Assembly: GCA_000004985.1 (NCBI GenBank)
Contig: GG738851.1
Length of the DNA stretch: 64,000 nt
DNA from: Naegleria gruberi
Lineage: Eukaryota
Reading direction: 5' to 3' (one strand)
Below the pieces are notes generated by a model. The model saw nothing but the letters and a program-made list of their open reading frames with translations, had not been told where the DNA came from and searched no databases. The translations under genes and the position numbers were made by a program. Every line of letters begins with the position of its first letter. Within the stretch, counting starts at the first letter, position 1. This document shows, piece after piece, positions 19,061 through 47,357 of this stretch.

Positions 19061-20581
19061 ATGAAAGCCACTTCAAGCAGCACTGATTTAGTGATTTCAC
19101 CTTCAACCAATTCAACAAATATTCTGACAACAGTTTCTTCTTCACAAGATGTCGCAACATTCATTGAAATGACACCAACCTCTCCAACCAGTATTGTAAA
19201 ACAAAGCAATTACTCAACTGGAATACAAAAAAGAGATTCTCTTCATAAATCTGTAACTGGAAAGAGTTTACCATCCTCCATGAAAACGCCAATGACCAGT
19301 TCGGTGACTGGTTTTCATTCAAAAACCTTCAAAATTTACACTTGTTGCGGAGTATTGGAATTGAACTGTCTCAAGTTGACCAGTTTTGCTGCACTTGGTA
19401 TTAGTATCTTTGCCTTTCTGTGTCTAATCATTATCATTTCCATTAACTTTTCCATTGTAAACTTGCTTCATACCAAGCTCAATCATTTGGACACTTCAGG
19501 AACCTTTGACAGAGATTTAATGATTTTGGCATGTCGAGTTTCTGTCACTAATCAATATAACAGAAGTCTATCATTGGAATATGCCAAATTATATAGTGAA
19601 TATTCTGATAGATATTACGAATCTTTGAATAATTTGGTTGCGAATGTGCCTCCTGAAATACTTTACTGGAATCAACATGGCATGTCAAGAGAAGATGTCA
19701 AATCAAGAAGAGCTGTCAAACAGGAACTTGCCATGATTGAATTAGTCAAGAGTGGCAATTATTCAAGTGCAATTTCAATTTTAGATTCAAGTCAATATAA
19801 GGAATTACTCACTGGATATCAAGACGAAGTTCAAAGTATTTTTGATTATGTTGAGAGTTTGAAACAAGAAAATTCTGATTTGGATTTGGCAACGACTACC
19901 ACTTCATTGATTATTATTTGTGTTTCACTTGTTGTAGTGATTCCTGTATTGTTGGTATTTGTCATGTTGAGTATTCGAAAGGATAATTCGAAAGAGAAAC
20001 AATTGAGACTTGTTAGAAAGTATATGATTATGGACACTATCAATGATGTGAAATTATCCGAACAATTCAAAGAGTTTTGTAAACAAGAGAGAAGTGAAGA
20101 TAACTTTGTGCTATTGGAAAAAATCAACGAATATAAGAAACTGTGCGAAAGAAGTTATGATATTCAGGTGTTTTTATACGATACAGACATTTTGAGTAGC
20201 TCAGCTTCCTCATCTACCTCAAGTACAGACGATTCTTCCAAAAAGAAGAATAAGAAAGGTTTCTCTGAAAAGGATGTAGTAGAAATTGAAAAGAAAAAGT
20301 TTGAAATTGCATTCGAAATCTTTACCGATTTTCTCGATGTTACTGGTGATAGATCAGTGAACATTAGCAAGCACTTGGCAGATTTTGTCAAACAACACTT
20401 GGATTTCTTTGCTAAAGGAGAGAATGAGTCCATGCCAGAGAATTTATTCGAAACAATTGAATGTGAAATGTGTGTCTTGATGATGGACACGCATCATAGA
20501 TTCAAGCAGTTCATTGAAACTCAATTAAGAGAAAAGAAGATGAAAATTCGTTCCGTTCACATTGTTTCAATAAAGAAGTAA
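19061..20581 (+). CDS. Ser/Thr-rich N-terminus, 2 TM helices and a C-terminal RGS domain; 506 aa
   Basis: ATG ORF. Hydrophobic segments are LTSFAALGISIFAFLCLIIIISI and LIIICVSLVVVIPVLLVFVMLSI. The RGS-box pattern reads LSEQFKEFCKQERSEDNFVLLEKINEYKKL..KKKFEIAFEIFTDFLD..FVKQHLDFF..FETIECEMCVLMMDTHHRFKQF. Confidence 0.7.
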   Translation: MKATSSSTDLVISPSTNSTNILTTVSSSQDVATFIEMTPTSPTSIVKQSNYSTGIQKRDSLHKSVTGKSLPSSMKTPMTSSVTGFHSKTFKIYTCCGVLELNCLKLTSFAALGISIFAFLCLIIIISINFSIVNLLHTKLNHLDTSGTFDRDLMILACRVSVTNQYNRSLSLEYAKLYSEYSDRYYESLNNLVANVPPEILYWNQHGMSREDVKSRRAVKQELAMIELVKSGNYSSAISILDSSQYKELLTGYQDEVQSIFDYVESLKQENSDLDLATTTTSLIIICVSLVVVIPVLLVFVMLSIRKDNSKEKQLRLVRKYMIMDTINDVKLSEQFKEFCKQERSEDNFVLLEKINEYKKLCERSYDIQVFLYDTDILSSSASSSTSSTDDSSKKKNKKGFSEKDVVEIEKKKFEIAFEIFTDFLDVTGDRSVNISKHLADFVKQHLDFFAKGENESMPENLFETIECEMCVLMMDTHHRFKQFIETQLREKKMKIRSVHIVSIKK

Positions 20582-20955: not shown

Positions 20956-21027
20956 GGGACCATGGTCTAGTGGTATGATTCTCGCTTTGGGTGCGAGAGG
21001 CCGTGGGTTCGATTCCCACTGGTCCCC
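20956..21027 (+). tRNA. tRNA-Pro: tRNA-Pro (anticodon TGG)
   Basis: GGGACCATGGTCTAGTGGTATGATTCTCGCTTTGGGTGCGAGAGGCCGTGGGTTCGATTCCCACTGGTCCCC. It has the GTCT/GATT D-stem typical of tRNA-Pro and the anticodon loop TTTGGGT. Confidence 0.9.
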
Positions 21028-21095
21028 ATTTCCTTTTTAAATTGCAATTGTAATTTCCTTTCTTTGGAATTGAAACAGTTTGAATGCAAAATCTT

Positions 21096-21118
21096 GGTGC
21101 GATTCCCACTGGTCCCCA
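21096..21118 (+). repeat. Partial duplicate of the tRNA-Pro 3' end (B-box remnant plus acceptor 3' strand) about 70 nt downstream of the gene; extra-B-box-like element
   Basis: ggtgcgattcccactggtcccca is gggtgcga[16-nt deletion]ttcccactggtcccca of the tRNA-Pro at 20956. Confidence 0.6.
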
Positions 21119-21590
21119 ATCCATTTTATTTTGTTCTACATTATCTATTTATCAAAATTGGTATGAGTATACCACTCACCAAATGATTAGAATTAAAAGG
21201 AAAACTACCAATAGAGAATCGAATTAGTGGGAATGATTCATACATATTCACCCTTTTCGAGCTTCCTTTTCACACTCAAATTCAAATTATCAACAAATGT
21301 CAAAAGGTGAAATACATTTCTTGAATTTCAGCTCCTTCACTCATCAGCGACAACACTTTCCAATTCGACTTCTCATAAACGACATTCCTTGTATCTAAAA
21401 GCGCGCAACGAAACTAACACTCAAAACAAAGTACATGCGCTCATTCCTTCTTCTTACCATTTAAATTGCATCACCATTTCGCTCAACATTTTGAAAAAAA
21501 CAAGACAACAATATCACTGAGACAAATCTCAATAACAACAACAACAATACTAGTTTTACATCTAGTTTTTGAAAAAAGAACAGAAACAAT

Positions 21591-22238
21591 ATGGCTATTA
21601 GCACAAATTTAAAGAATCTCGTTCAAAAGTTGCCACTGGTTGGTCAACATGCTCAACATGCATTGGATGATCTTGGTATTGGTGGTGGAAATCATCAAGA
21701 AAAGAGAAAGTCACAAGCCAAAATTGTCATTATTGGTTTGGAAAATTCAGGAAAATCAAGTATTCTCTCCAAACTTAGAAAGATGAAGAAACAATTGTGG
21801 AACAAGTTGAAGAAACAAAAGAATGAATTGCCAGAAACTAATCCAACTCTTGGTTTCAATGTTGATATGTTCAAGTATCATGACACTTCATTTACTTGCT
21901 TTGAAATTGGTGGAAAGTTCTTGAAAACTAAACAATTGGCAAAACATTACTTTGAAAATAATCATGCAGTGATTTTTGTGATTGATTCAACTGACAGAAA
22001 TAAGATTCAAGAAGCTAGAGATACTATTCATTCAGTAATGCAAGATCCACTCCTTTCTGGTTGTAAATTATTAGTCTTGGCTAATAAGCAAGATTTATCC
22101 GAATCTATGGAAATGGACGAAATGGTCAAACAATTGAAATTGAACGATATCAAACAAAAATGGAATATTTATGCAACAAGTGCCAAGAATGGAATGGGAT
22201 TATTTGCAAGCTTTGATTGGATTTCTTTGGCCGATTAA
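21591..22238 (+). CDS. ARF/ARL-family small GTPase with a divergent switch II (FEIGGK instead of WDVGGQ) and a 22-aa insertion after the P-loop; 215 aa
   Basis: The ATG ORF has the family motifs KIVIIGLENSGKSS (P-loop), PTLGFNV, LLVLANKQDL (NKxD) and TSAK. The catalytic Gln is Lys, and there is no N-terminal Gly2. Confidence 0.75.
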   Translation: MAISTNLKNLVQKLPLVGQHAQHALDDLGIGGGNHQEKRKSQAKIVIIGLENSGKSSILSKLRKMKKQLWNKLKKQKNELPETNPTLGFNVDMFKYHDTSFTCFEIGGKFLKTKQLAKHYFENNHAVIFVIDSTDRNKIQEARDTIHSVMQDPLLSGCKLLVLANKQDLSESMEMDEMVKQLKLNDIKQKWNIYATSAKNGMGLFASFDWISLAD

Positions 22239-22803: not shown

Positions 22804-24942
22804 ATGAAGAATCAATCAGGACCAGTAGCTACCATAGTAGGGCTGATACTACTTTCAACCTCCTCCTCTCCGAGTCATAATTACAAATCTATTAATTATT
22901 ATTATAAGAGTTTGATAATTTATTTAATATTTACGATTTTTCAAAGTTTAATAACAGTACATGCCCAACAAACATTTCCACCAACGTTAAATTATCAAGG
23001 CTATCAACTACTCCTTTCCAAGAATCAACTCCTCATCAGAGCAACTACCTCCACTCTACTCACTTCCAATAATTTGGGAGCAAGTCTTTCATCACCATCC
23101 GAAATTCAAGGTGGTTTTGTCATTCAGAATACTGTGTTTTATGTACAGAATGTTATTGGAGGAAGTTTTGAATTGGTAACTACCACTACTAGTGGTACAA
23201 ATAGTTCGAGTGTTGTTACATCCTTTTCTTCAGAGGCTATTCAACAGGGAAGAGTTTACTTTGTGCCAAATGTTGGATTGGATATTAATTTGAAACCTTC
23301 GTATAGTGTTTGGGCTCAAGGCTTGTTGGTCAATTCATCTACCTTACTTAGTGTTGCATTGTTAAATAGTACAACAATTTCGAGTGCTCAAGTGACCTTT
23401 ACGAGATGGAATACAGGATTGATTGGAGCTCCAAAACCAGTTGTGTTCAATAGGTCAAATTCAACTCACGTCATTATTGAAGTGAACATGTTCAAGAGAA
23501 ATATCGATGGACCTCCAGCTTCTTCCTTTATGGTTGGTCTAGCCAACAGTGCTACTTGTACCAGTGATTATAATACTGTATTGAACTCTCTGTCTGATGG
23601 TTTTGTAAAAAGTGCAGAGACTGAAACGTATCAGACCTTTGTCCTCATTCAGACAATTGCTGCTCACTTGGCCAATCCAAATGTTGTCAAGATTTCTAAG
23701 GGAATTTACATTGATGTTAGGGTTTCTGTATTTATGACTTATATGATTACAAATCCAGGCAGTTCATGTCAGAGAATTCAATATACGGAAGATTTAATTA
23801 CTCAAGCCAATTTGATAGCTCAACAGAATGGTAATTCTAATACTCCTCAAATGAGTCTCACTCCAACACGATTGATAGTTTCAGATTCGAGTCAGTTGCT
23901 ACTTTCACTTCTTCTCACTGTTACTGGTTTGAATACTGCAAATTTATTCAATTGGCAACTCACTGGTCCTAAAGCATTCACTCTCAATTATCCAATTTTG
24001 GCTGATGTCCAAGGAGATACCAAATATTGGCAATTTTCATTCGCATCCAACTCTGTATCAGATGGTGAGGATTTTAGTGGAACGTATACATTTAAATTCG
24101 AGGCACAAGTGAGTGGTGAAGCTACATCAAAATTTTACCAGCTCTCAATTACTCTGCAATATTCTATACCAGATGGTGAAGGTGTTTCAGGAGGAGGTGG
24201 ATTACCATTCGACACTGAAATTAACACTTATTATGATAATAATTTTGGTACAAATCAACCCCAGACTCAGATCAAGAAGACACAGCAAGCATTTATCAAA
24301 GTTTCCACAGTGCTCATTTCAACATCGTTGGGTACTGTCTCACCAATTCCAAGTTCAAAACAAATTGCGCCATACAACATATTTATTTGTTGCACCAAGA
24401 ATTTCCAGGCAATGCCATCCAATCAATGTAGACAATACGATGCAACCGTCATGACCTACCAGAAACAGCTGATGATCAATGGAACGATAAGTTCAGACTC
24501 TGATGTTGTTTCTAAATTCAAACTGAAATCTCCAGAGACTATTAAAGGAATCACAGATTGGGGTACTCTCAGACACATTTATGCATTCAGTATGTATATG
24601 ACTGCTCTTGTAACAGGAGTGGATAAGAGATGCTATCTTGCCATAGATACCTATTTGGTGAATGCTGACCTACCAGTTCTTAGAGGTTTGCAAGCTAACA
24701 CTCTCTCTGCAGCCTCTAACATTTCTACCTCAACCAGAGCTTTTGATTTGATTGAAGTGATTGCTGCAACTTCATCCTCCAAGAAACCACAAAAGAGTGT
24801 GCATGCATCTGCATCGAAAAAGAACGGATTTGGCTCTGTGGACTACATTTGTGATAGCAGTGCTCCATCTACCATGAGGTATAATTACCACATTGTAGTT
24901 GTGATAATCTTTACTTTGATATTGGTAAACGTTATCACTTAA
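22804..24942 (+). CDS. Ser/Thr-rich secreted or GPI-anchored surface glycoprotein (hypothetical), 712 aa
   Basis: ATG ORF with an N-terminal hydrophobic segment, many NxS/T sequons, and a C-terminal hydrophobic tail (YNYHIVVVIIFTLILVNVIT) consistent with a GPI signal. Confidence 0.55.
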   Translation: MKNQSGPVATIVGLILLSTSSSPSHNYKSINYYYKSLIIYLIFTIFQSLITVHAQQTFPPTLNYQGYQLLLSKNQLLIRATTSTLLTSNNLGASLSSPSEIQGGFVIQNTVFYVQNVIGGSFELVTTTTSGTNSSSVVTSFSSEAIQQGRVYFVPNVGLDINLKPSYSVWAQGLLVNSSTLLSVALLNSTTISSAQVTFTRWNTGLIGAPKPVVFNRSNSTHVIIEVNMFKRNIDGPPASSFMVGLANSATCTSDYNTVLNSLSDGFVKSAETETYQTFVLIQTIAAHLANPNVVKISKGIYIDVRVSVFMTYMITNPGSSCQRIQYTEDLITQANLIAQQNGNSNTPQMSLTPTRLIVSDSSQLLLSLLLTVTGLNTANLFNWQLTGPKAFTLNYPILADVQGDTKYWQFSFASNSVSDGEDFSGTYTFKFEAQVSGEATSKFYQLSITLQYSIPDGEGVSGGGGLPFDTEINTYYDNNFGTNQPQTQIKKTQQAFIKVSTVLISTSLGTVSPIPSSKQIAPYNIFICCTKNFQAMPSNQCRQYDATVMTYQKQLMINGTISSDSDVVSKFKLKSPETIKGITDWGTLRHIYAFSMYMTALVTGVDKRCYLAIDTYLVNADLPVLRGLQANTLSAASNISTSTRAFDLIEVIAATSSSKKPQKSVHASASKKNGFGSVDYICDSSAPSTMRYNYHIVVVIIFTLILVNVIT

Positions 24943-28151: not shown

Positions 28152-28226
28152 TGCTACCCGCGCGGATCGAACGCACATCTTCTTACTCCCGATAAGCAAG
28201 ACGCCCTACCATTAGACCAGAGCAGC
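28152..28226 (-). tRNA. tRNA-like gene of uncertain identity (possible tRNA-Ile TAT with a 4-nt intron, or a pseudogene)
   Basis: The minus-strand sequence is GCTGCTCTGGTCTAATGGTAGGGCG TCTTG CTTATCGGGAG TAAGA AGAT GTGCGTTCGATCCGCGC GGGTAGCA. The acceptor, D-arm and T-arm are good (B-box GTTCGATCC). The anticodon stem TCTTG/TAAGA encloses 11 nt rather than 7, so either a 4-nt intron or an expanded loop is present. Confidence 0.5.
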
Positions 28227-28262: not shown

Positions 28263-29477
28263 TCAAGCATTAAGATACTCCATCAAAAAGAAAAACCACA
28301 GTGGAACTGTGTTGTGCTCCAATAATTTGGAGCTAATCTCAATATAGGGAACTGTGTGTGTAGCCAATCGATTGTAGAGTCTTTGATTTGTAATCTTGTA
28401 TTCTGAACTGTGATCTGACTGCATACCAACAATGGCCATGATACATGAGGGGACTAACTTTCTAACCTGCTCTATAAAGAAACGAATATTTAGTAAGGTG
28501 GCTTTGCTTGTCAAGTCAAAAGCAATGATGCAATATTTGGAATCATTCAAAAAAGAATTTCTTGGTACGTATATTTGTTCTCCTCCTGCCCAGTCCCATA
28601 ATGCAATGTTCAAGCTTTCAGTCTGATTCAATTGTGTTGACAAATTGAAAACTGAGACAGTACAACCAATGGTTGGTAAATACTTTTGGTGTGGTTTGAA
28701 TTTTGAAACATCTAAGGATTTACAAAATGTTGTCTTGCCAACTGCACCACAGCCCAAAACACAACACTTTGCCAACTTGATATCCTTCCACTTGGAAAAG
28801 GTTTCATCGGTGAGTGAAAATTTTCTAACTCTAAGGAGAGCTGCTTCCTCTTCCACAATCTTCTTACCACTATTCTTCAGGAAGGATTTGTAAACTTGAA
28901 ATTGTTTCATCAAACTCTCGAATAATAATAAATCATCGGGTTGATGAGTCTTATCTGCCACTGTGGATGATGATGAAGAATTATCATCCTCTTTCAAATT
29001 CAAGACAATGTGTTGCCATAGACCCTTTTCACTCCACTCCTTCTCACACTCCTTCAACATGTTCATAACATATTGTTGAAAGCAAAATTCGTAGAATCCA
29101 ACTTTTTCTGCAGCCAAGTCTAGGAAGGATTCTGAAGTTGGTGGCTTATTCTCTTCAAAATCATCATCACCATCCTCTTGATATTTCATCAATGCTAGCC
29201 AATATAAATCACTCTCTGTATAATTAATACTAATATTCAATGATGTCTTATGGTTCTGCAACTTGATGATTTTCCTTTGGATATACTCTTCGACAAGTCT
29301 TCGGGAAAGCTTACAACACTTGGAGATGCCAAAAAACAAATCCAAAGGATTGAGAAACTCCAATATTGAAAACAACCATACATCATTATTAATTCCCATC
29401 AATTCGTGTTGTTCATCCTTTTCCTCGTTGTCGGCTTTTATTCTTAAGCTTGATTCTGTATTGTTCTTGTTATTCAT
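28263..29477 (-). CDS. F-box-like N-terminus fused to a degenerate Ras-superfamily GTPase domain (no NKxD, no switch-II Gln)
   Basis: The track ORF starts at TTG (29615), and the first ATG gives MNNKNNTESS.. at about 29477. The F-box-like segment is DVWLFSILEFLNPLDLFFGISKCCKLSRRL. The GTPase-like segment has the P-loop LGCGAVGKTTF and DxxG as WDWAGGEQ. There is no NKxD, and GMQSD sits in its place. Confidence 0.55.
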   Translation of the reverse strand: MNNKNNTESSLRIKADNEEKDEQHELMGINNDVWLFSILEFLNPLDLFFGISKCCKLSRRLVEEYIQRKIIKLQNHKTSLNISINYTESDLYWLALMKYQEDGDDDFEENKPPTSESFLDLAAEKVGFYEFCFQQYVMNMLKECEKEWSEKGLWQHIVLNLKEDDNSSSSSTVADKTHQPDDLLLFESLMKQFQVYKSFLKNSGKKIVEEEAALLRVRKFSLTDETFSKWKDIKLAKCCVLGCGAVGKTTFCKSLDVSKFKPHQKYLPTIGCTVSVFNLSTQLNQTESLNIALWDWAGGEQIYVPRNSFLNDSKYCIIAFDLTSKATLLNIRFFIEQVRKLVPSCIMAIVGMQSDHSSEYKITNQRLYNRLATHTVPYIEISSKLLEHNTVPLWFFFLMEYLNA

Positions 29478-29768
29478 CCTCCTATTTTTTAATGCAAGCT
29501 TGAAGGTTGTGGATTTTAAGAGGAGGTGTGAGATTGCCAAGTTGTTGTTGGTGTTACATGGAGTGTTGATGAAGAATTCTTTTTTGTTGAATTGTTTCTT
29601 CTTTTTCACCGCCAAACTAACCGTTAGACCGGTTATTAAATATTTTAATTTTTAAAATAAAAAAAATGTAAATGTATCATCACTTCCTAATGGAAGTAAT
29701 ACTTCAATTGTCATTGAGCGGATAGTTTGCTCATACCGCACGACAATGCAAATAACAAAGAAGAAAAA

Positions 29769-35237: not shown

Positions 35238-38172
35238 TTAGATTGTAATAAAAAGTGTAATTATAAAGAAAATAAGCAAGGAATAGGACAAGACAATTCG
35301 GCCTGTTCCAGAAATGATTATGTCATCTGCTGGAATATCTATAGGACTTGCTGGAGTTTCAGTTCGAGAAACATCTCCAGTAATCACCATACTGAAAGTT
35401 TGAATACCCTTGTTTGTTGGTTTGGCACCAACTCTGATGGCAATGGATGTATCTTTGGCAATGCCTGGAACAGTGATACCTTCAACAGTATTCAATACAT
35501 CAATACTGGTTCCATTGTTACCGAAATAATTGATACCTCCTAAACTGACAATAAGATTAAGATCATTGATTAACTTCTTTTCCTTAACTGTTGAGCTGGT
35601 TTCAACTTGGGAAGATAAATCATACCAAGTCATTGTTACCTTAAGAGTGGTGGCTGAATTGGCAACAAATTTCATTTTGATTTGTTTGTTGGCATCTAGA
35701 GAATATCTGTTGACAAGATGAATTTCCTTAATTCTGTTAACACTTGAGGGGTCAGAGTCAATCTTGAGAACATTTAACAAATCGATTCTTCCGTATCCAT
35801 TGTACTTATTTGGAGAGCCAAATTGTGAGAGAGGAACATTAACAGAGTTAATTTGAACTGTTCCTTTCATTGTATCTGCAGAATGAATGGCCATGGCCTT
35901 AACCAACGTTCCAGCCAAAGTCTGTGAAGCATCCTTATTAAAAATATTATAATCAATCAACTTTTTCTTGTTGTCTTTTAACAAGTAATGTCTAATAAGA
36001 GCCAATCCTCCAGACTATAATATTATAAAAATTAATTAGAATTACCAAAGAGAACACTTACCACTCCAGGAGTACTAACAAACCACAAAGCACAGTATTA
36101 ATATGTAGATAACAGTTTGTTAAATAATTCTATTAAAGGGTTAAAATCAGTACATACCTCATTGATGTACCAGTCATTTGCTGAACTCCACATGAATCCA
36201 CATTACTTGCACTCATTATCCCATAACCAGGGGCAACAACTAAATGGTTCAATTACAAGAATAAATAAGAAACATACTATCAGGTTTGATTCTCTCATCA
36301 TACGTAGGTCCTCTACTCGATAACCCCCAAACATTTTCAAAGTTGTACAACGTGGTCCATGCATTATTGAAGAATTTCTTATAATAAGCTAATGTTGCAT
36401 AAGAGGCTCCGACTGTTATGACATTCTTTGCAGTTGCTGGAGCTCCCAATGTCCTATCAGAAGCGGATGTACCTTCATTTCCTGCAGCCACAACCACAGT
36501 CACTTCATCATTGGCATTCAAGAATGAATCCATAATAGCACTATCTGTATCATAGGCATTACAATAGTGACAACAACGAACACCTGAATCTTTGATGCAT
36601 TGATCATCTGATATCTTTTCTTTAGTATTATCACTTTTCACAATGTAGCAATCACAATCAAAATCACACTATAATGAAATTGTTATTTCATCTTCAAACT
36701 TTTTGAAATATTGAAATACTTACAGTATATGGAAGTGCACATCCCCAACTATTGCTTGAAATTTTTGCACCTGCCTTAAAGGCATTCTTTAAATTTGCTG
36801 TTATATCTCCTACATACAGACTTCCATAGGCTTCCTTCTGGGCATCCAAAGCATAGATTTTTGCATCCTTGGCCACACCATAATTTGAGGAAACAAATTC
36901 TGAGGTTGGTATTGTCTGTGGATAGCCAGCAATAGTTCCAACTACGTGTGTACCATGTCCATTAGTATCACTCAAATCAGTCTTATCAGCATCAGCTTTT
37001 CCATAGTAGATAATCTTTCTGTAGTTAGCATTGAGAGTGGTCTTGGTGCTTGGCTCATTAGTTCCAGTGAAAAAACAGTGATCTGTTGAAACACCAGTGT
37101 CAATGACAAGAACAATTTCAGAGGCGCCAGTAATTCCGTTATCCCATAAATAAGTATAATTAGAACCACCTCCATTTTGAATTACTTGATTAGTTCCATA
37201 ATTCTTAATTTCATAACTCAATTGTCTGGAGACCATATCCACTGAATCGTCATTGGTTAAAAATTCCAGGAATGCCTGCCCAACACCTTCTGATAATTCT
37301 CTAATAAATCTTCCAAGTGATGAACTTCTTTCAAATACCTTTTGAACTTGCTCTCTCTTTGTCAAGGATTCAACCAATGGATGATCGAATTTCCTTTGTT
37401 TTATCAATTTCCAAACTCCATAATCAAAATTTGCAAGAGTGATTTGAAGTCCTTGACTATCCACATTCCAATCCATTGAAAATAAAGAGTCTGTTTGTTC
37501 TTTCAAGAATTCCTTAACCTCGAATGTGTTTCTCTTATTATTCGAATACTCTAACTGACTAATATCTTCAGACTGAATTAAAACCGATGACATTAAATTT
37601 GACATGGTTCTTGTATAAGTTGAAGAGTACCAATTTTTCAATCGATTCATGGTTTGCAACCTCTCCATTTCATTCAATTTAGTATCAAGCTTGATTCTCA
37701 AACCATAAAGTTTTAAAGATTCTAATGAAAGATTTGAAAATGATCGTTTGTCAGAGTTGGTTACCTTCTTGATCCATTCAATAGATTTCTTTGCAAAATA
37801 ACTTTTAGTGAGTTCCTTAATTTGTTGATGAGAAAGCCTTGTTGTGAAAACAGAGACATCGGAATGAAATTGAAATTCCTTATAATTTTCAACCTTCATC
37901 AATGTTGCCATTCTACTCAAAAATTCATCATTCATAACAATATAATCCCACACCTTCACATGAACCAACATTCTATTATTTAAACTCTTCTCATCAGGTG
38001 TATTCACTCTAAACTTGTTCATCAAATTTTCCTCAGTGGCGTATCGTTCTACAATAGACGATCCTTTTGCTGAGGCCTCCAAAATTGCCATCAGAAAAAA
38101 CAATAAAAACACTGCTATCAATGTGATACACACACTGATTTTTCTCGCTGAAAATTCCCGAGTCATTTTCAA
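35238..38172 (-). CDS. Subtilisin-like serine protease (peptidase S8) paralog A, 5 exons (36724..38172, 36278..36668, 36158..36239, 36062..36074, 35238..36014), about 903 aa
   Basis: It has a signal peptide and a propeptide. The Asp motif is VIDTGVSTDHC, the His motif is GHGTHVVGTIAG, the Asn motif is VVAAGNEG, and the Ser motif is GTSM|STPGV|SGGLALI (split over three exons). A C-terminal beta-rich domain ends in a hydrophobic tail. Introns are 55, 38, 83 and 47 nt, all GT..AG, and the exon sum of 2712 nt is in frame. Confidence 0.8.
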
Positions 38173-44373: not shown

Positions 44374-47357
44374 TTACATGAGAAAGTTAATAATCGAAAT
44401 GATCAAGATTAAGATAAGTGAACATCTAACATTTGTAGATTGTCCAACAACAGGATTTGAAAGAGAAGATGTGGCATTGATAACTTCAGTAAATGGACTA
44501 CCAGTTGATGGAATGGTAGTTGGAGCAGATGGTTTCTCTGCTAAGGTAACATCCCCAGTAATGACCATACTGAATGCTTGTTTTCCCTTATTGGTGGATT
44601 TGGCTCCAACCTTGACTGTGAAATTACCTTGTGGTAAATTGGAAATTACAATACTTTCTGCAGTGTTGACCGTATCGAGAGTGTTGCCTGTGATGGCTCC
44701 ATTTCCATAATAATATTTCTTTCCAACAACTGCGACAACACTAATGTCGTTGATGAGTTTCTTGGTTTTTACAGAGCTAAGTGTATCAGCAGCAGATGGT
44801 AAATCGTACCAAGCAATGGTAACTTTCAGTGTGGTTACAGAATTGGCCTTCAAAGGAATGTCAACTTGTTGATTGGCATCAAGTGAATATCTATTGGCTA
44901 CGAGAATATTCTTAATTCTGTTCACACTTGCTGAATCAGTGTCAATCTTCAAGACATTTTGTAAATTGATTCTTCCAAAACCATTGTACTTGTTTGGTGA
45001 GTTGAATTGACTCAAATACAAATCAGTACCTCCAATTTGCACAAATCCCTTCATGACTTCTCCTGAGTGCAGAATCATGGCTTTGACCAAAGTCCCTGAC
45101 AAGGTTTGAGAAGGTGAACTATTGAAAATATTGTAATCGACTAATTTCTTCTTATTATCCTTTACCAAGTAGTGTCTTACCAAAGCTAATCAATTATTGA
45201 AACATTAAATGTAAATAATTAAATAAAATCAATGCCAACTACTTACCTGCTGCTCCAGAAACTGCAGGAGTTGCCATACTATATATGCATTGAAAAAGAA
45301 ATGTTAAATAACAAAGCTACACATCTCAAAAGCACTTACCTAGTTCCAGATTTTCCTACAGGATCACAAGAAGCAGTATTCAAAGAACTGATTGTACTGT
45401 AACCTGGTGCAGCAACTGAAAAGATTAATGTTAAGCTTTCAATTGTCAATGAGTGAAATACTTACTATCTGGTTTGATTCTATTATCATAGGTAGGTCCT
45501 TTTCCAGAAAAACTAGCCATATTCTCAAATTCAAAAACGGTATAATTTCTGCTTGTAAAGAACTGCTTGTAATAGGAAGATGGTGCATAGGAAGCGCCAA
45601 CTGTCAATGAATTCTTTGATGTGGATGGATCTCCCAAATTGGAATCAGTTGAGTATTCACCATCGTTACCAGCAGCCATTACAACAGTCACTTCATCATT
45701 TGAACTCAAAAAAGTGTCAACTCTATTACTGTCATATCCATAAAGATTACAATAGTGACAACATCTGGTACCAGTCAATGCCATACAAGAGGCATCAGTG
45801 ACAGCAGCACCTCGAGTATTATCAGAATTCAATTCATAGCATTTACAATCATAATCACACTAATAATGAGATTCAAGTTGACTGATTTTTCATATTATGA
45901 AAACTTACATCATAAGGATTACCACATCCCCAACTGTTACTTGAAATTTTAGATCCAGCATTGGTAAATGCATTAGACAAAACGGTATTCATATCACCAA
46001 TGTATAATCCTCCATTTGCTCCTGCTTGCACATCCACTGCATAGAGTTTGGCATCCTTGGCCACACCAACATTCTTATCCATGACTGTGGTTCCAAGTGT
46101 TTGTGGATATCCAGCAATGGTTCCTGCTACGTGAGTGCCATGACCTTCTCCATCTGTCAAATCACCATACTGTCCATTCTTATTATAGTAAACGACCTTT
46201 CTATAATTCAAATTAACACTTGTCTTGGTGCTTGGTTCACTACTGCCAGTAAAGAGACAATGTCCAAGAGTTATTCCAGTATCGATAACTGAAACAACCT
46301 CAGAGGCACCTGTAATTCCATTATTCCACATGTAGGTATAATTGGATCCACCTCCATTTTGAATCACTTGATTGGCTCCATAATTCTTAATCTCATGAAT
46401 ACGTTGACGAATGACCACATCTACAGAATCATCACTCGACAAGTAATTTAACAATTCCTGACCCATCTCACTTGACATGTCCTCTATTAATCCTTCAAGT
46501 TCTTGATTCATCTTGAAGAACTTTTGAATTTCTTCTCTTCTTTTCAATGATTGAACAATTGGAGAATCAAATTTTCCTTCTTTGATCAATTTCCAAACTC
46601 CGTAATCAAAGTTTGCGAGTGTGACTTGAACAGCATGAGTTTCACTTTGCCAATCGAGGTCGAATAGAGAGTTGGCTTGATCTCTGATGAATTCACGAAT
46701 GATAGTTTCGTCTTGTTGAGTGGAAAGTGCAGTTTCGGCAAGTTTCGAATTATGAATGGATTGTTGAATTTGTTGAATGTTTAGTTTGGACAAGGATCGA
46801 GTCATTTTTTGAGTATAACTGGAAAGGTACCAATTTCTCAATCTATTCATCGTTTGCAATCTTTCCATTTCGTTTAGTTTACTATCTAATACAATCTTCA
46901 AGCCACCAAGTTTCAACGAATCCAAACTAAGTTTCGTAAATGATTTCTTATCTGAATTCGAAACCTTCTTGATCCATTCAATATTCAATTTAGCAAAATT
47001 ATTATTCGAAAGCTCTTGAATCTGAAGTGTTGTGAGTCTTGTAGTAAAAACTGGAATGTCGGAATGAAATTGAAATTCCTTGTAATTGTCAACCTTCATC
47101 AATTGTGCCATTCTATTGAGAAAGTCATCTGTCATGATGGTATTATCACGTATTTTGACATGTACGAGCATTCTTTGGGTGTTTGAAATTGTTTGTGTGG
47201 TTTGTACATTTAATTTTGGAGTGTTGGAAACTGTTTCGAATAAATTTTCTACATGGTTGTATGTTTCCAATAGTTTGGAAGGTTCTTGTTGTAGTGAGAA
47301 TCCAATGCAACAAAGGAGTGCTGCAAAAAGTATCAATTTGGCAGCACCTAATGTCAT
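44374..47357 (-). CDS. Subtilisin-like serine protease (peptidase S8) paralog B, 5 exons (45909..47357, 45466..45859, 45340..45415, 45247..45278, 44374..45185), about 920 aa
   Basis: It has the same architecture as paralog A. The Asp motif is VIDTGITLGHC, the His motif is GHGTHVAGTIAG, the Asn motif is VVMAAGNDG, and the Ser motif is GTS|MATPAVSGAA|ALVRHYL. Introns are 49, 50, 61 and 61 nt with GTAAGT donors, and the exon sum of 2763 nt is in frame. Confidence 0.8.

What the first reader, a model, noticed from the sequence alone, without database searches (positions are those of the whole stretch)
21591..22238. ARF-family GTPase lacking the catalytic switch-II glutamine (DVGGQ changed to EIGGK)
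The P-loop, TxGFN switch I, NKxD and SAK motifs are intact, which places the protein in the ARF/ARL family. The invariant Gln used for GTP hydrolysis is Lys. A 22-residue basic insertion follows the P-loop, and the N-terminal myristoylation Gly is absent. The protein would probably be locked in the GTP-bound state or hydrolyse with altered kinetics, and may be an atypical regulatory ARL.
Basis: partly seen in the sequence, partly recalled or inferred. Interest (0 to 1): 0.5.

Follow-up and report, generated by a model that had tools for sequence, protein, structure and literature searches.

The report
Naegleria Arf1 paralog lacking catalytic glutamine
This is a real, selectively maintained gene of the amoeba Naegleria gruberi (already catalogued as NgrArf1i) for an Arf1-derived small GTPase. 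Its catalytic glutamine is replaced by lysine, which is an unusual but not unprecedented state for this protein family.

Summary
ORF 21591-22238(+) encodes a 215-aa Arf-family GTPase (Pfam Arf E=6.8e-41). Its switch II reads EIGGK where Arf1 has DVGGQ, and three independent alignments agree on that register. The P-loop, switch-I Thr, NKQD and SAK motifs are intact and Gly2 is absent. One correction: the basic insertion is 13 residues, not 22.

The window is Naegleria gruberi NEG-M. The protein is XP_002681010.1, listed as 'NgrArf1i' (Arf1 group) in Vargova et al. 2021, which does not discuss the missing Gln.

It belongs to a Naegleria-restricted clade (99% NJ bootstrap) with a remodelled switch II, [DE]IG[GA]xF[LF]KTKQLA[KQ]HY. 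The Gln position in this clade is K, L or F. A syntenic ortholog (80% identity) gives dN/dS 0.13, so the gene is not a pseudogene.

The most likely reading is a GTP-binding Arf1 derivative that canonical ArfGAPs cannot switch off. Membrane binding would rely on a polybasic amphipathic extension of helix alpha1 rather than on myristate. This is inferred, not shown.

Human TRIM23 also has Lys at this position and hydrolyses GTP, so 'GTP-locked' is not assured. Loss of the Gln is common: ARL10/13/15/16 lack it, and so do at least 10 other N. gruberi members. I file it as a new member of a known kind, of modest interest.

The parts
21591..22238 (+). Complete single-exon CDS (215 aa plus stop) of N. 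gruberi Arf-family GTPase NgrArf1i = XP_002681010.1 / EFC48266.1 / UniProt D2V3W1
   Evidence: ORF listing. Exact-sequence look-up. Pfam Arf E=6.8e-41. Listed as single exon in Vargova et al. Suppl. Table 1. dN/dS 0.13 against the syntenic ortholog.
21591..21704 (+). N-terminal region, aa 1-38. It starts Met-Ala (no Gly2). Residues 1-21 are conserved and weakly amphipathic (AISTNLKNLVQKLPLV). They are followed by a variable Gly/His-rich linker that has a 7-aa indel in the ortholog.
   Evidence: Alignment with P0002. N-terminal dN/dS 0.19. muH 0.39, shuffle p=0.085. AF2 pLDDT below 50 for residues 1-33.
21735..21758 (+). G1 / P-loop GLENSGKS (aa 49-56); intact GxxxxGK[ST]
   Evidence: Alignments.
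21780..21818 (+). 13-residue insertion KMKKQLWNKLKKQ (aa 64-76) at the C-terminal end of helix alpha1. Together with its flanks (aa 58-80, net charge +8) it forms a cationic amphipathic helix extension.
   Evidence: Gap placement in phmmer alignments to Arf1. AF2 helix 55-73, against about 11 residues in Arf1. muH 0.47, shuffle p=0.02. Conserved in ortholog P0002 and absent from paralog NgrArf1h.
21843..21860 (+). G2 / switch I PTLGFN (aa 85-90), including the Mg2+-binding Thr86 (= Arf1 T48)
   Evidence: Invariant columns P85, T86, G88, N90.
21903..21953 (+). G3 / switch II EIGGKFLKTKQLAKHYF (aa 105-121). E105 replaces the Walker-B Asp and K109 (AAG, 21915-21917) replaces the catalytic Gln. 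There is one extra residue, and A117 replaces Arf1 W78.
   Evidence: F110 to Y120 are invariant, except position 118 (K or Q), across the five clade members aligned.
22083..22094 (+). G4 NKQD (aa 165-168), the guanine-specificity motif, intact
22179..22187 (+). G5 SAK (aa 197-199), intact

Best explanation
The ORF is the N. gruberi gene NgrArf1i. It is a lineage-specific, selectively maintained descendant of Arf1 and belongs to a small Naegleria-restricted subfamily (Arf1h/Arf1i).

Shown here: the Arf fold and all nucleotide-binding motifs are kept. The subfamily has lost the switch-II catalytic Gln, which is K in Arf1i, L in N. gruberi Arf1h, N. fowleri and a metagenome relative, and F in N. 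lovaniensis. The rest of switch II has become a new, nearly invariant sequence (F-[LF]-K-T-K-Q-L-A-[KQ]-H-Y) with one extra residue and without the Arf Trp78. Arf1i has additionally changed the Walker-B Asp to Glu, lost Gly2, and gained a 13-residue polybasic amphipathic extension of helix alpha1.

Inferred: the protein still binds guanine nucleotide. It cannot be switched off by the canonical mechanism, in which the ArfGAP arginine finger acts together with the switch-II Gln. It would therefore behave as a slowly hydrolysing or non-hydrolysing, mostly GTP-bound Arf, controlled by expression, localisation or a dedicated partner that reads the remodelled switch II. It would attach to acidic membranes electrostatically through the basic amphipathic helix and the N-terminal helix, instead of through a myristoyl switch.
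For: Identity: exact match to XP_002681010.1, and four neighbouring ORFs also match N. gruberi proteins. The protein is listed as NgrArf1i, group Arf1, with no myristoylation flag.

Family and fold: Pfam Arf E=6.8e-41. PDB Arf1 matches at about 1e-33. The AF2 G domain has pLDDT above 90 and Foldseek top hits are Arf1 at E~1e-19.

Register of K109 and E105.

Clade: NJ bootstrap is 99% for the six-member clade and 100% for Arf1i plus P0002. Switch II is nearly invariant in the five-sequence alignment. The KTKQLA motif occurs only in NgrArf1h and NgrArf1i within the stored part of the 114-species dataset.

Selection and reality: dN/dS is 0.13 at dS 0.74 against a syntenic ortholog. The same codons appear in independent contigs.

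Mechanism by analogy: the switch-2 Gln is critical for GAP-stimulated hydrolysis in ARFs and is required by the ArfGAP Arg finger (PMC6724607). Leu at this position is the standard GTP-form Arf1 Q71L used in many PDB entries. HRAS Q61K is among the strongest transforming codon-61 mutants (PMC6813200). ARL10/13/15/16 also lack the Gln, and several are discussed as pseudoGTPases (PMC12722892).

Membrane mode: Gly2 is absent. Paralog Arf1h keeps MGQ and is flagged as myristoylated. The insertion is helical in AF2 and is amphipathic with net charge +8.
Against: There is no biochemical data for this protein or any clade member.

Human TRIM23 has Lys at the same position (K458). It has measurable GTPase activity, and K458I is called GTPase-dead. 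A Lys here can therefore coexist with, or even serve, hydrolysis.

The Asp-to-Glu change in G3 is rare: 4 of 326 aligned domains, at least 2 of them this protein itself or its near-identical allele. It might weaken Mg2+ and nucleotide binding rather than leave it intact.

AF2 confidence is only 60-85 over the insertion and below 50 for the N-terminus. The amphipathicity of the N-terminal helix is not significant (p=0.085).

Placement inside the Arf1 group rests on similarity and a weakly supported NJ topology (46% for the grouping with Arf1b-e).
Confidence: 0.6

Rival explanations
1. Arf1i is a working GTPase with a non-canonical catalytic arrangement. Either Lys109 itself takes part in hydrolysis, as proposed for TRIM23 K458, or a dedicated GAP supplies the missing catalytic residue in trans, as RapGAP does for Rap, which lacks Gln61. 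The protein would then cycle normally.
For: TRIM23 naturally has DVGGK. Wild-type TRIM23 shows GTPase activity and K458I is 'GTPase-dead'. Lys is conserved in both Arf1i orthologs with the same AAG codon despite dS 0.74. Lys recurs at this column in about 10 other Arf-like domains among the 337 fetched. The strictly conserved new switch II suggests a specific partner.
Against: The position is L or F in the closest relatives, which share the same switch II, so it is not conserved for chemistry across the clade. Arf1i has no TRIM23-like N-terminal GAP region and is only 34% identical to the TRIM23 Arf domain. Ras Q61K and Q61R are strongly impaired in hydrolysis. The sample was selected by similarity to a Lys-bearing query, so it is biased.
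Confidence: 0.22
2. Arf1i is a nucleotide-independent or weakly nucleotide-binding pseudoGTPase. The Walker-B Asp-to-Glu change plus the altered P-loop (GLENSGKS) would perturb Mg2+ coordination, so the protein would act as a static scaffold or adaptor rather than as a switch.
For: Glu at the G3 Asp position is very rare in the sampled Arf domains. It otherwise occurs in ARL16 (human ELGGC; N. gruberi EVGGG), which is one of the ARLs listed as atypical. ARL14 and ARL15 purify nucleotide-free.
Against: G1 Lys and Ser, G2 Thr, G4 NKQD and G5 SAK are all intact and under purifying selection. Paralog Arf1h keeps the Asp. Glu retains the carboxylate.
Confidence: 0.12
3. The gene is a decaying duplicate (pseudogene in the making), or the odd residues are sequencing or assembly errors.
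For: It is one of 14 Arf1-group genes in N. gruberi. No Arf1i-type ortholog was retrieved from the N. fowleri or N. lovaniensis protein sets.
Against: The reading frame is intact. dN/dS is 0.13 overall and 0.12 over switch II at dS 0.74. Synteny is conserved with the tRNA-Pro gene and the downstream gene. Identical codons occur in two independent assemblies.
Confidence: 0.03

Closest known systems
NgrArf1h (XP_002682000.1) and its orthologs in N. fowleri (FDP41_009205) and N. lovaniensis (C9374_014643)
   Same: They fall in the same clade (99% NJ bootstrap) and share the remodelled switch II F[LF]KTKQLA[KQ]HY with one extra residue. All lack the catalytic Gln. They share the GKS/GKT P-loop, NKQD and SAK, and are 49-57% identical over the G domain.
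   Different: They keep the Walker-B Asp and have Leu or Phe instead of Lys. They keep Met-Gly, and Arf1h is flagged as N-myristoylated in Vargova et al.. They lack the 13-residue alpha1 insertion. The N. fowleri and N. lovaniensis proteins carry long low-complexity N-terminal and internal inserts.
Canonical Arf1 (human ARF1, NgrArf1a)
   Same: The fold is the same (Foldseek E~1e-19) and identity is 39-42%. G1, G2, G4 and G5, the interswitch layout and the C-terminal helix are shared. The protein was assigned to the Arf1 group by Vargova et al..
   Different: DVGGQ becomes EIGGK. W66 becomes F and W78 becomes A, and switch II has one extra residue. There is no Gly2 or myristate. The N-terminus is about 24 residues longer, and alpha1 has a 13-residue basic insertion.
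TRIM23 / ARD1 Arf domain (human NP_001647.1)
   Same: It is the only well-studied natural Arf domain I found with Lys at the Gln position (WDVGGK, K458). It also lacks N-myristoylation.
   Different: TRIM23 keeps the Asp and an otherwise canonical switch II (KHKLRPLWKHYY). [quoted passage not shown] It is holozoan-specific and only 34% identical to the query. The Lys is therefore convergent.
Gln-less ARLs (ARL13, ARL16, ARL10, ARL15) and class II pseudoGTPases (Rnd, RhoH)
   Same: The switch-II Gln is missing while the nucleotide-binding motifs are largely retained. ARL16 also has Glu in place of the G3 Asp (human ELGGC, N. gruberi EVGGG).
   Different: Arf1i is only 21-34% identical to N. gruberi Arl16 and Arl13 and is placed far from them in the tree. 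It has no Arl13-type C-terminal coiled-coil. The residue at the Gln position is Gly or Cys in those proteins, not Lys.
Arf1 Q71L / Ras Q61K, Q61L (engineered or oncogenic GTPase-deficient mutants)
   Same: The same position is substituted by the same residues (K in Arf1i, L in Arf1h). These mutants are GTP-form or GAP-insensitive.
   Different: Those are single substitutions in an otherwise native switch II. Here the whole switch II has been rebuilt and is conserved, so behaviour cannot simply be transferred from them.

Membership tests
ARF family (Pfam PF00025; Arf/Arl/Sar) | Significant match to the Arf family profile above the curated threshold | tested here: met
   E=6.8e-41, 140.1 bits against a cut-off of 22.3, covering profile positions 10-171 of 174.
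ARF family (Pfam PF00025; Arf/Arl/Sar) | Arf-type G-domain fold | tested here: met
   The AF2 model has pLDDT above 90 over most of the G domain. The Foldseek top 50 hits are all Arf, Arl or Arf6 structures, with a best E of 2.5e-19.
ARF family (Pfam PF00025; Arf/Arl/Sar) | G1 GxxxxGK[ST], G2 Thr in PT[IL]GFN, G4 NKxD, G5 SA[KT] | tested here: met
   GLENSGKS, PTLGFN, NKQD and SAK.
ARF family (Pfam PF00025; Arf/Arl/Sar) | G3 DxxGQ with a catalytic Gln (His in Sar1) | tested here: not met
   The motif is EIGGK. K109 aligns with Arf1 Q71 and E105 with D67 in three alignment methods. This feature is also unmet in accepted members (ARL13, ARL16, TRIM23), so it does not exclude family membership.
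Arf1 orthologous group (sensu Vargova et al. 2021) | Phylogenetic or similarity affiliation with Arf1 rather than with any other ancestral paralog | tested here: inconclusive
   Highest identity outside its own clade is to N. gruberi Arf1b, d, e and a (42-44%), against 35% or less to Arl1-Arl18. The NJ tree nests the clade among Arf1-group sequences, but with only 46% support for the grouping with Arf1b-e. The authors assigned it by 'SeqSim', not by phylogeny.
Arf1 orthologous group (sensu Vargova et al. 2021) | N-terminal Gly2 myristoylation plus amphipathic helix (myristoyl switch) | tested here: not met
   The N-terminus is Met-Ala-Ile, and there is no myristoylation flag in Suppl. Table 1. 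A weakly amphipathic N-terminal segment remains.
Class II pseudoGTPase (binds GTP, does not hydrolyse; e.g. Rnd, RhoH) | Nucleotide-binding motifs retained and catalytic residue substituted | tested here: met
   The class definition is from PMC12722892.
Class II pseudoGTPase (binds GTP, does not hydrolyse; e.g. Rnd, RhoH) | Experimentally shown GTP binding without hydrolysis | not testable with these tools
   This requires purified protein and GTPase or nucleotide-binding assays.
TRIM23 / ARD1 | [quoted passage not shown] | tested here: not met
   The protein has 215 aa, only GTPase-type Pfam matches and no RING, B-box or coiled-coil domain. It is 34% identical to the TRIM23 Arf domain.
ARL16 | Orthology to ARL16 (E/D-x-G-G-[G/C] G3, cilium-associated paralog) | tested here: not met
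   It shares the Glu in G3, but is only 21% identical to NgrArl16 and lies far from it in the tree.
Sar1 | DxGGH switch II and Sar1 orthology | tested here: not met
   It is 25-27% identical to NgrSar1a and NgrSar1b, which served as the outgroup in the tree.

The most novel reading that the evidence does not exclude
The Naegleria Arf1h/Arf1i proteins may form a previously undescribed Arf subfamily that has given up the canonical off-switch and rebuilt switch II (nearly invariant F-[LF]-K-T-K-Q-L-A) for a lineage-specific partner. Within it, Arf1i would have replaced the myristoyl switch with a polybasic amphipathic extension of helix alpha1 that sits next to switch I. Membrane contact could then be coupled to the nucleotide state in a way not described for any Arf. 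Lys109 might also have re-created a TRIM23-like, Gln-independent catalytic arrangement.
Probability: 0.15. Interest if true: 0.5.

Novelty: new member of a known kind. Interest (0 to 1): 0.25.

Why it matters
The practical value is modest. The result shows that natural 'Q71L/Q71K-like' Arfs exist as conserved, selected genes in a free-living amoeba and in its pathogenic relative N. fowleri. It adds a protist case to the growing list of atypical Arf-family GTPases that may not work as classical switches. The rebuilt, conserved switch II and the swap from myristate to a basic amphipathic helix give concrete, testable handles for finding a lineage-specific partner and membrane-binding mode. The result does not change what is understood about GTPase mechanism, because loss of this Gln recurs in the family and Lys at the position is already known from TRIM23.

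Tried and rejected
- Bacterial or viral origin. The tools default to code 11, so I checked this. It is rejected because five window ORFs match N. gruberi RefSeq proteins exactly and the context is eukaryotic: F-box, LRR, RGS, BTB, EGF.
It is rejected because three alignment methods agree. The nearby Q115 aligns with Arf1 P76.
- Membership of ARL16, ARL13, Sar1 or TRIM23. These are rejected on identity, tree position and domain content.
- Pseudogene or assembly artefact. This is rejected by dN/dS, synteny and independent contigs.
- Literature search for the accession or name (XP_002681010, D2V3W1, EFC48266, NgrArf1i) found no paper.
- The main text of Vargova et al. has no occurrence of 'glutamine', 'catalytic' or 'Naegleria'. 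The protein appears only in the supplementary tables and dataset.
- A Biopython BLOSUM bootstrap timed out. I replaced it with a numpy Kimura-distance NJ tree with 200 bootstraps. No maximum-likelihood tree could be made.
- The ancestral residue at position 109 could not be resolved. The codons are AAG (Arf1i) and TTA (Arf1h), which differ at all three positions.
- A search for other Arf genes in the window found none. The only other hit is a Ras/Roc-type domain at 28266-29651(-).

Full report
**Observation.** The ORF at 21591-22238(+) is 215 aa. It matches Pfam Arf (PF00025) at E=6.8e-41, 140 bits against a curated cut-off of 22.3. A phmmer search finds 249 PDB sequences, led by Arf1 from several eukaryotes at E~1e-33 to 1e-31.

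In those alignments the query segment FEIGGKFLKTKQLAKHYF pairs with Arf1 WDVGGQD-KIRPLWRHYF. K109 therefore sits at Arf1 Q71 and E105 at Arf1 D67. Switch II has one extra residue, and Arf1 W78 is Ala. A MAFFT alignment with 38 Arf-family sequences gives the same register, and so does hmmalign of 337 Arf domains. The nearest Gln (Q115) aligns with Arf1 P76.

G1 (GLENSGKS), G2 (PTLGFN), G4 (NKQD) and G5 (SAK) are intact, and the N-terminus is Met-Ala. One detail is wrong in the finding. The insertion after helix alpha1 is 13 residues (aa 64-76, KMKKQLWNKLKKQ), not 22.

**Source and prior knowledge.** The window has 31-35% GC, dispersed tRNA genes, and ORFs with F-box, LRR, RGS, BTB, EGF/NHL and Ras/Roc domains. 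An exact-sequence look-up identifies five window ORFs as Naegleria gruberi NEG-M proteins. The target is XP_002681010.1 / EFC48266.1 / D2V3W1, annotated 'ARF/SAR family small GTPase'.

Vargova et al. 2021 (PMC8358228) list it as NgrArf1i in their supplementary table. They place it in the Arf1 group 'by sequence similarity', as a single-exon gene, without a myristoylation flag. Its sequence in their dataset is identical to the window translation. The main text of that paper never mentions glutamine, catalysis or Naegleria, and no paper in the library cites the accession. The gene is therefore known and catalogued, but the switch-II peculiarity has not been discussed.

**Relatives.** The word-indexed search found three close relatives:
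- a 99% allele in a metagenome (P0001);
- an 80% ortholog (P0002, Logan run SRR25266757);
- a 56% relative (P0003), which is N. gruberi paralog NgrArf1h with one substitution.

The exhaustive HMMER scan of 1.84 billion representatives gave 10,488 hits, but only 11 at E<=1e-30. Of the single-domain hits among these, the ones with the highest identity to the query are P0046 and P0047.

A profile search named P0047 as N. fowleri FDP41_009205. It also added N. lovaniensis C9374_014643 (P0193).

All six proteins share the switch II pattern [DE]IG[GA]xF[LF]KTKQLA[KQ]HY. The residue at x differs:

| Protein | Residue at the Gln position |
|---|---|
| Arf1i (window and P0002) | K |
| N. gruberi Arf1h | L |
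| N. fowleri | L |
| P0046 (metagenome) | L |
| N. lovaniensis | F |

In the five-sequence alignment every residue from F110 to Y120 is invariant except position 111 (L or F) and position 118 (K or Q), while overall column identity is 52%. Within the stored part of the 114-species dataset, KTKQLA occurs only in NgrArf1h and NgrArf1i.

**Tree.** An NJ tree (Kimura distances, 173 columns, 200 bootstraps) gives these supports:
- 99% for the six-member clade;
- 100% for Arf1i plus P0002;
- 76% for Arf1h plus the N. fowleri and N. lovaniensis proteins.

The clade sits among Arf1-group sequences, nearest the Naegleria-specific Arf1b-e set. Support for that placement is only 46%. Those neighbours share F at Arf1 W66.

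No Arf1i-type protein was retrieved from N. fowleri or N. lovaniensis. Either the duplication is old and Arf1i was lost there, or Arf1i is a fast-evolving recent copy. This is not resolved.

**Is it a live gene?** P0002's contig is syntenic. It matches the window from the 3' end of tRNA-Pro (21000-21040), through the gene, and into the downstream gene (22891-22946).

Nei-Gojobori dN/dS between the two orthologs is 0.13 at dS 0.74. By region it is 0.12 for the G domain, 0.12 for switch II and 0.19 for the N-terminal 38 residues. The GAA (Glu105) and AAG (Lys109) codons are identical in the window, L001 and L002. The gene is under purifying selection and is not an assembly artefact.

**Structure.** AF2 with a 61-sequence alignment gives mean pLDDT 79.7, with above 90 over most of the G domain. 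Helix alpha1 runs from residue 55 to 73, about two turns longer than in Arf1, with moderate confidence (62-85). A loop (74-84) leads into switch I. Residues 1-33 are below 50. Foldseek returns Arf1, Arf6 and Arl1 structures at E~1e-19 to 1e-17.

The segment 58-80 has net charge +8 and a helical hydrophobic moment of 0.47 (shuffle p=0.02). The hydrophobic stripe is L62, M65, L69, W70 and L73. The N-terminal 2-17 segment is only weakly amphipathic (p=0.085).

- In N. gruberi alone, 11 of the 26 non-Sar members I aligned lack the Gln: Arf1g K, Arf1h L, Arf1i K, Arf1j L, Arf1k A, Arf1l N, ArlX4 G, Arl6b A, Arl13 G, Arl16 G and ArlX3 K. By eye, ArlX2 (DVGGS) and Arfrp1 (DIGGN) also lack it.
- A 2025 review states that ARL10, ARL13A/B, ARL15 and ARL16 lack this Gln, and it discusses several ARLs as pseudoGTPases (PMC12722892).
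That sample is biased towards the query.
- Human TRIM23/ARD1 has WDVGGK, with the Lys at residue 458.

The rarer feature is Glu in place of the G3 Asp. It occurs in 4 of 326 aligned domains, at least 2 of which are this protein itself or its near-identical allele. Otherwise it is seen in ARL16: human ELGGC and N. gruberi EVGGG.

**Mechanism.** The following are shown here:
- an intact nucleotide-binding scaffold;
- loss of the Gln;
- a rebuilt, conserved switch II;
- loss of Gly2;
- a basic amphipathic alpha1 extension;
- purifying selection.

The rest is inferred. The switch-2 Gln is critical for GAP-stimulated hydrolysis in ARFs, and the ArfGAP arginine finger requires it (PMC6724607). Leu at this position is the classic GTP-form Q71L (PDB titles). 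HRAS Q61K is among the strongest transforming codon-61 substitutions (PMC6813200).

From these I infer that the Arf1h/i clade cannot be inactivated by the canonical route and is likely to be long-lived in the GTP form. The position tolerates K, L and F while the next eleven residues stay essentially fixed. This suggests that residue 109 is not catalytic across the clade and that switch II is kept for partner binding. For Arf1i, the loss of myristoylation together with the gain of a polybasic amphipathic helix suggests electrostatic, peripheral membrane binding.

The main caveat is TRIM23. There a natural Lys at the same position coexists with measurable GTPase activity, and K458I is described as GTPase-dead (PMC12075517). 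A Gln-independent hydrolytic arrangement therefore cannot be excluded for Arf1i, in which the Lys is conserved between orthologs. A third possibility is that the Asp-to-Glu change weakens Mg2+ and nucleotide binding, making the protein a nucleotide-independent pseudoGTPase.

**Verdict.** The gene is a catalogued, lineage-specific Arf1 derivative of Naegleria, and it adds one more case to a known class of Gln-less atypical Arf-family GTPases. Its distinctive points are:
- the clade-wide rebuilt switch II;
- the rare G3 Glu;
- the apparent change of membrane anchor.

These make it a reasonable subject for a small biochemical study, but the result is not surprising. Interest is 0.25.

Noticed in passing
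window 20956-21027 (+) and 21097-21119: tRNA-Pro(TGG) lies about 560 nt upstream of the Arf gene. About 70 nt downstream of it there is a 23-nt near-copy of its own 3' end (ggtgcgattcccactggtcccca against gggttcgattcccactggtcccca). The tRNA-Pro/Arf1i linkage is conserved in the ortholog contig L002.
   Followed up: partly
window 19061-20581 (+): The immediate upstream neighbour on the same strand is a 506-aa protein (XP_002681009.1) with a Ser/Thr-rich N-terminus, hydrophobic segments and a weak C-terminal RGS domain (Pfam E=1.8e-5). It is a regulator of heterotrimeric G proteins sitting next to an atypical small GTPase. No functional link was tested.
   Followed up: no
window 28266-29651 (-): A 450-aa ORF has a C-terminal Ras/Roc-type GTPase domain (Pfam Ras E=7.8e-19, Roc E=2e-15) and a roughly 280-aa N-terminal region with no Pfam match. 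It is the only other small-GTPase-like gene in the window.
   Followed up: partly
window 36697-38172 (-) and 45876-47357 (-): Two paralogous ORFs of about 490 aa each match only the first ~119 of 288 positions of the subtilase (Peptidase_S8) profile, at their C-terminal ends. This suggests that the genes continue across introns, or are truncated duplicates about 9 kb apart.
   Followed up: no
window 28152-28226 (-): ARAGORN calls a 75-nt tRNA-Pro with anticodon GGG at the unusual position 37. GGG is not a usual eukaryotic Pro anticodon, so this may be a mis-call or an intron-containing or odd tRNA.
   Followed up: no
N. gruberi ARF family (sequences from PMC8358228 Suppl. dataset 1): At least 11 of 26 non-Sar N. 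gruberi Arf-family members lack the switch-II Gln (K, L, A, N or G). Three of them are BTB-domain fusions (Arf1j, k, l). Loss of the catalytic residue looks like a genome-wide tendency in this expanded family.
   Followed up: partly
database proteins P0144, P0139, P0098, P0182, P0181, P0230, P0088, P0135: Several otherwise canonical Arf1-like domains in the 50%-identity representative library read WDVGGKDKIRPLWRH, a clean Q71K in a native Arf1 switch II. They occur mostly in longer proteins (221-478 aa). Their origin and the validity of their gene models were not examined.
   Followed up: no
P0047 (N. fowleri FDP41_009205) and P0193 (N. lovaniensis C9374_014643): The Arf1h orthologs of the pathogenic N. 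fowleri and of N. lovaniensis carry long Ser/Asn-rich low-complexity inserts. One is at the N-terminus and one is inside the G domain, between alpha4 and beta6. These inserts are absent from the N. gruberi proteins.
   Followed up: no
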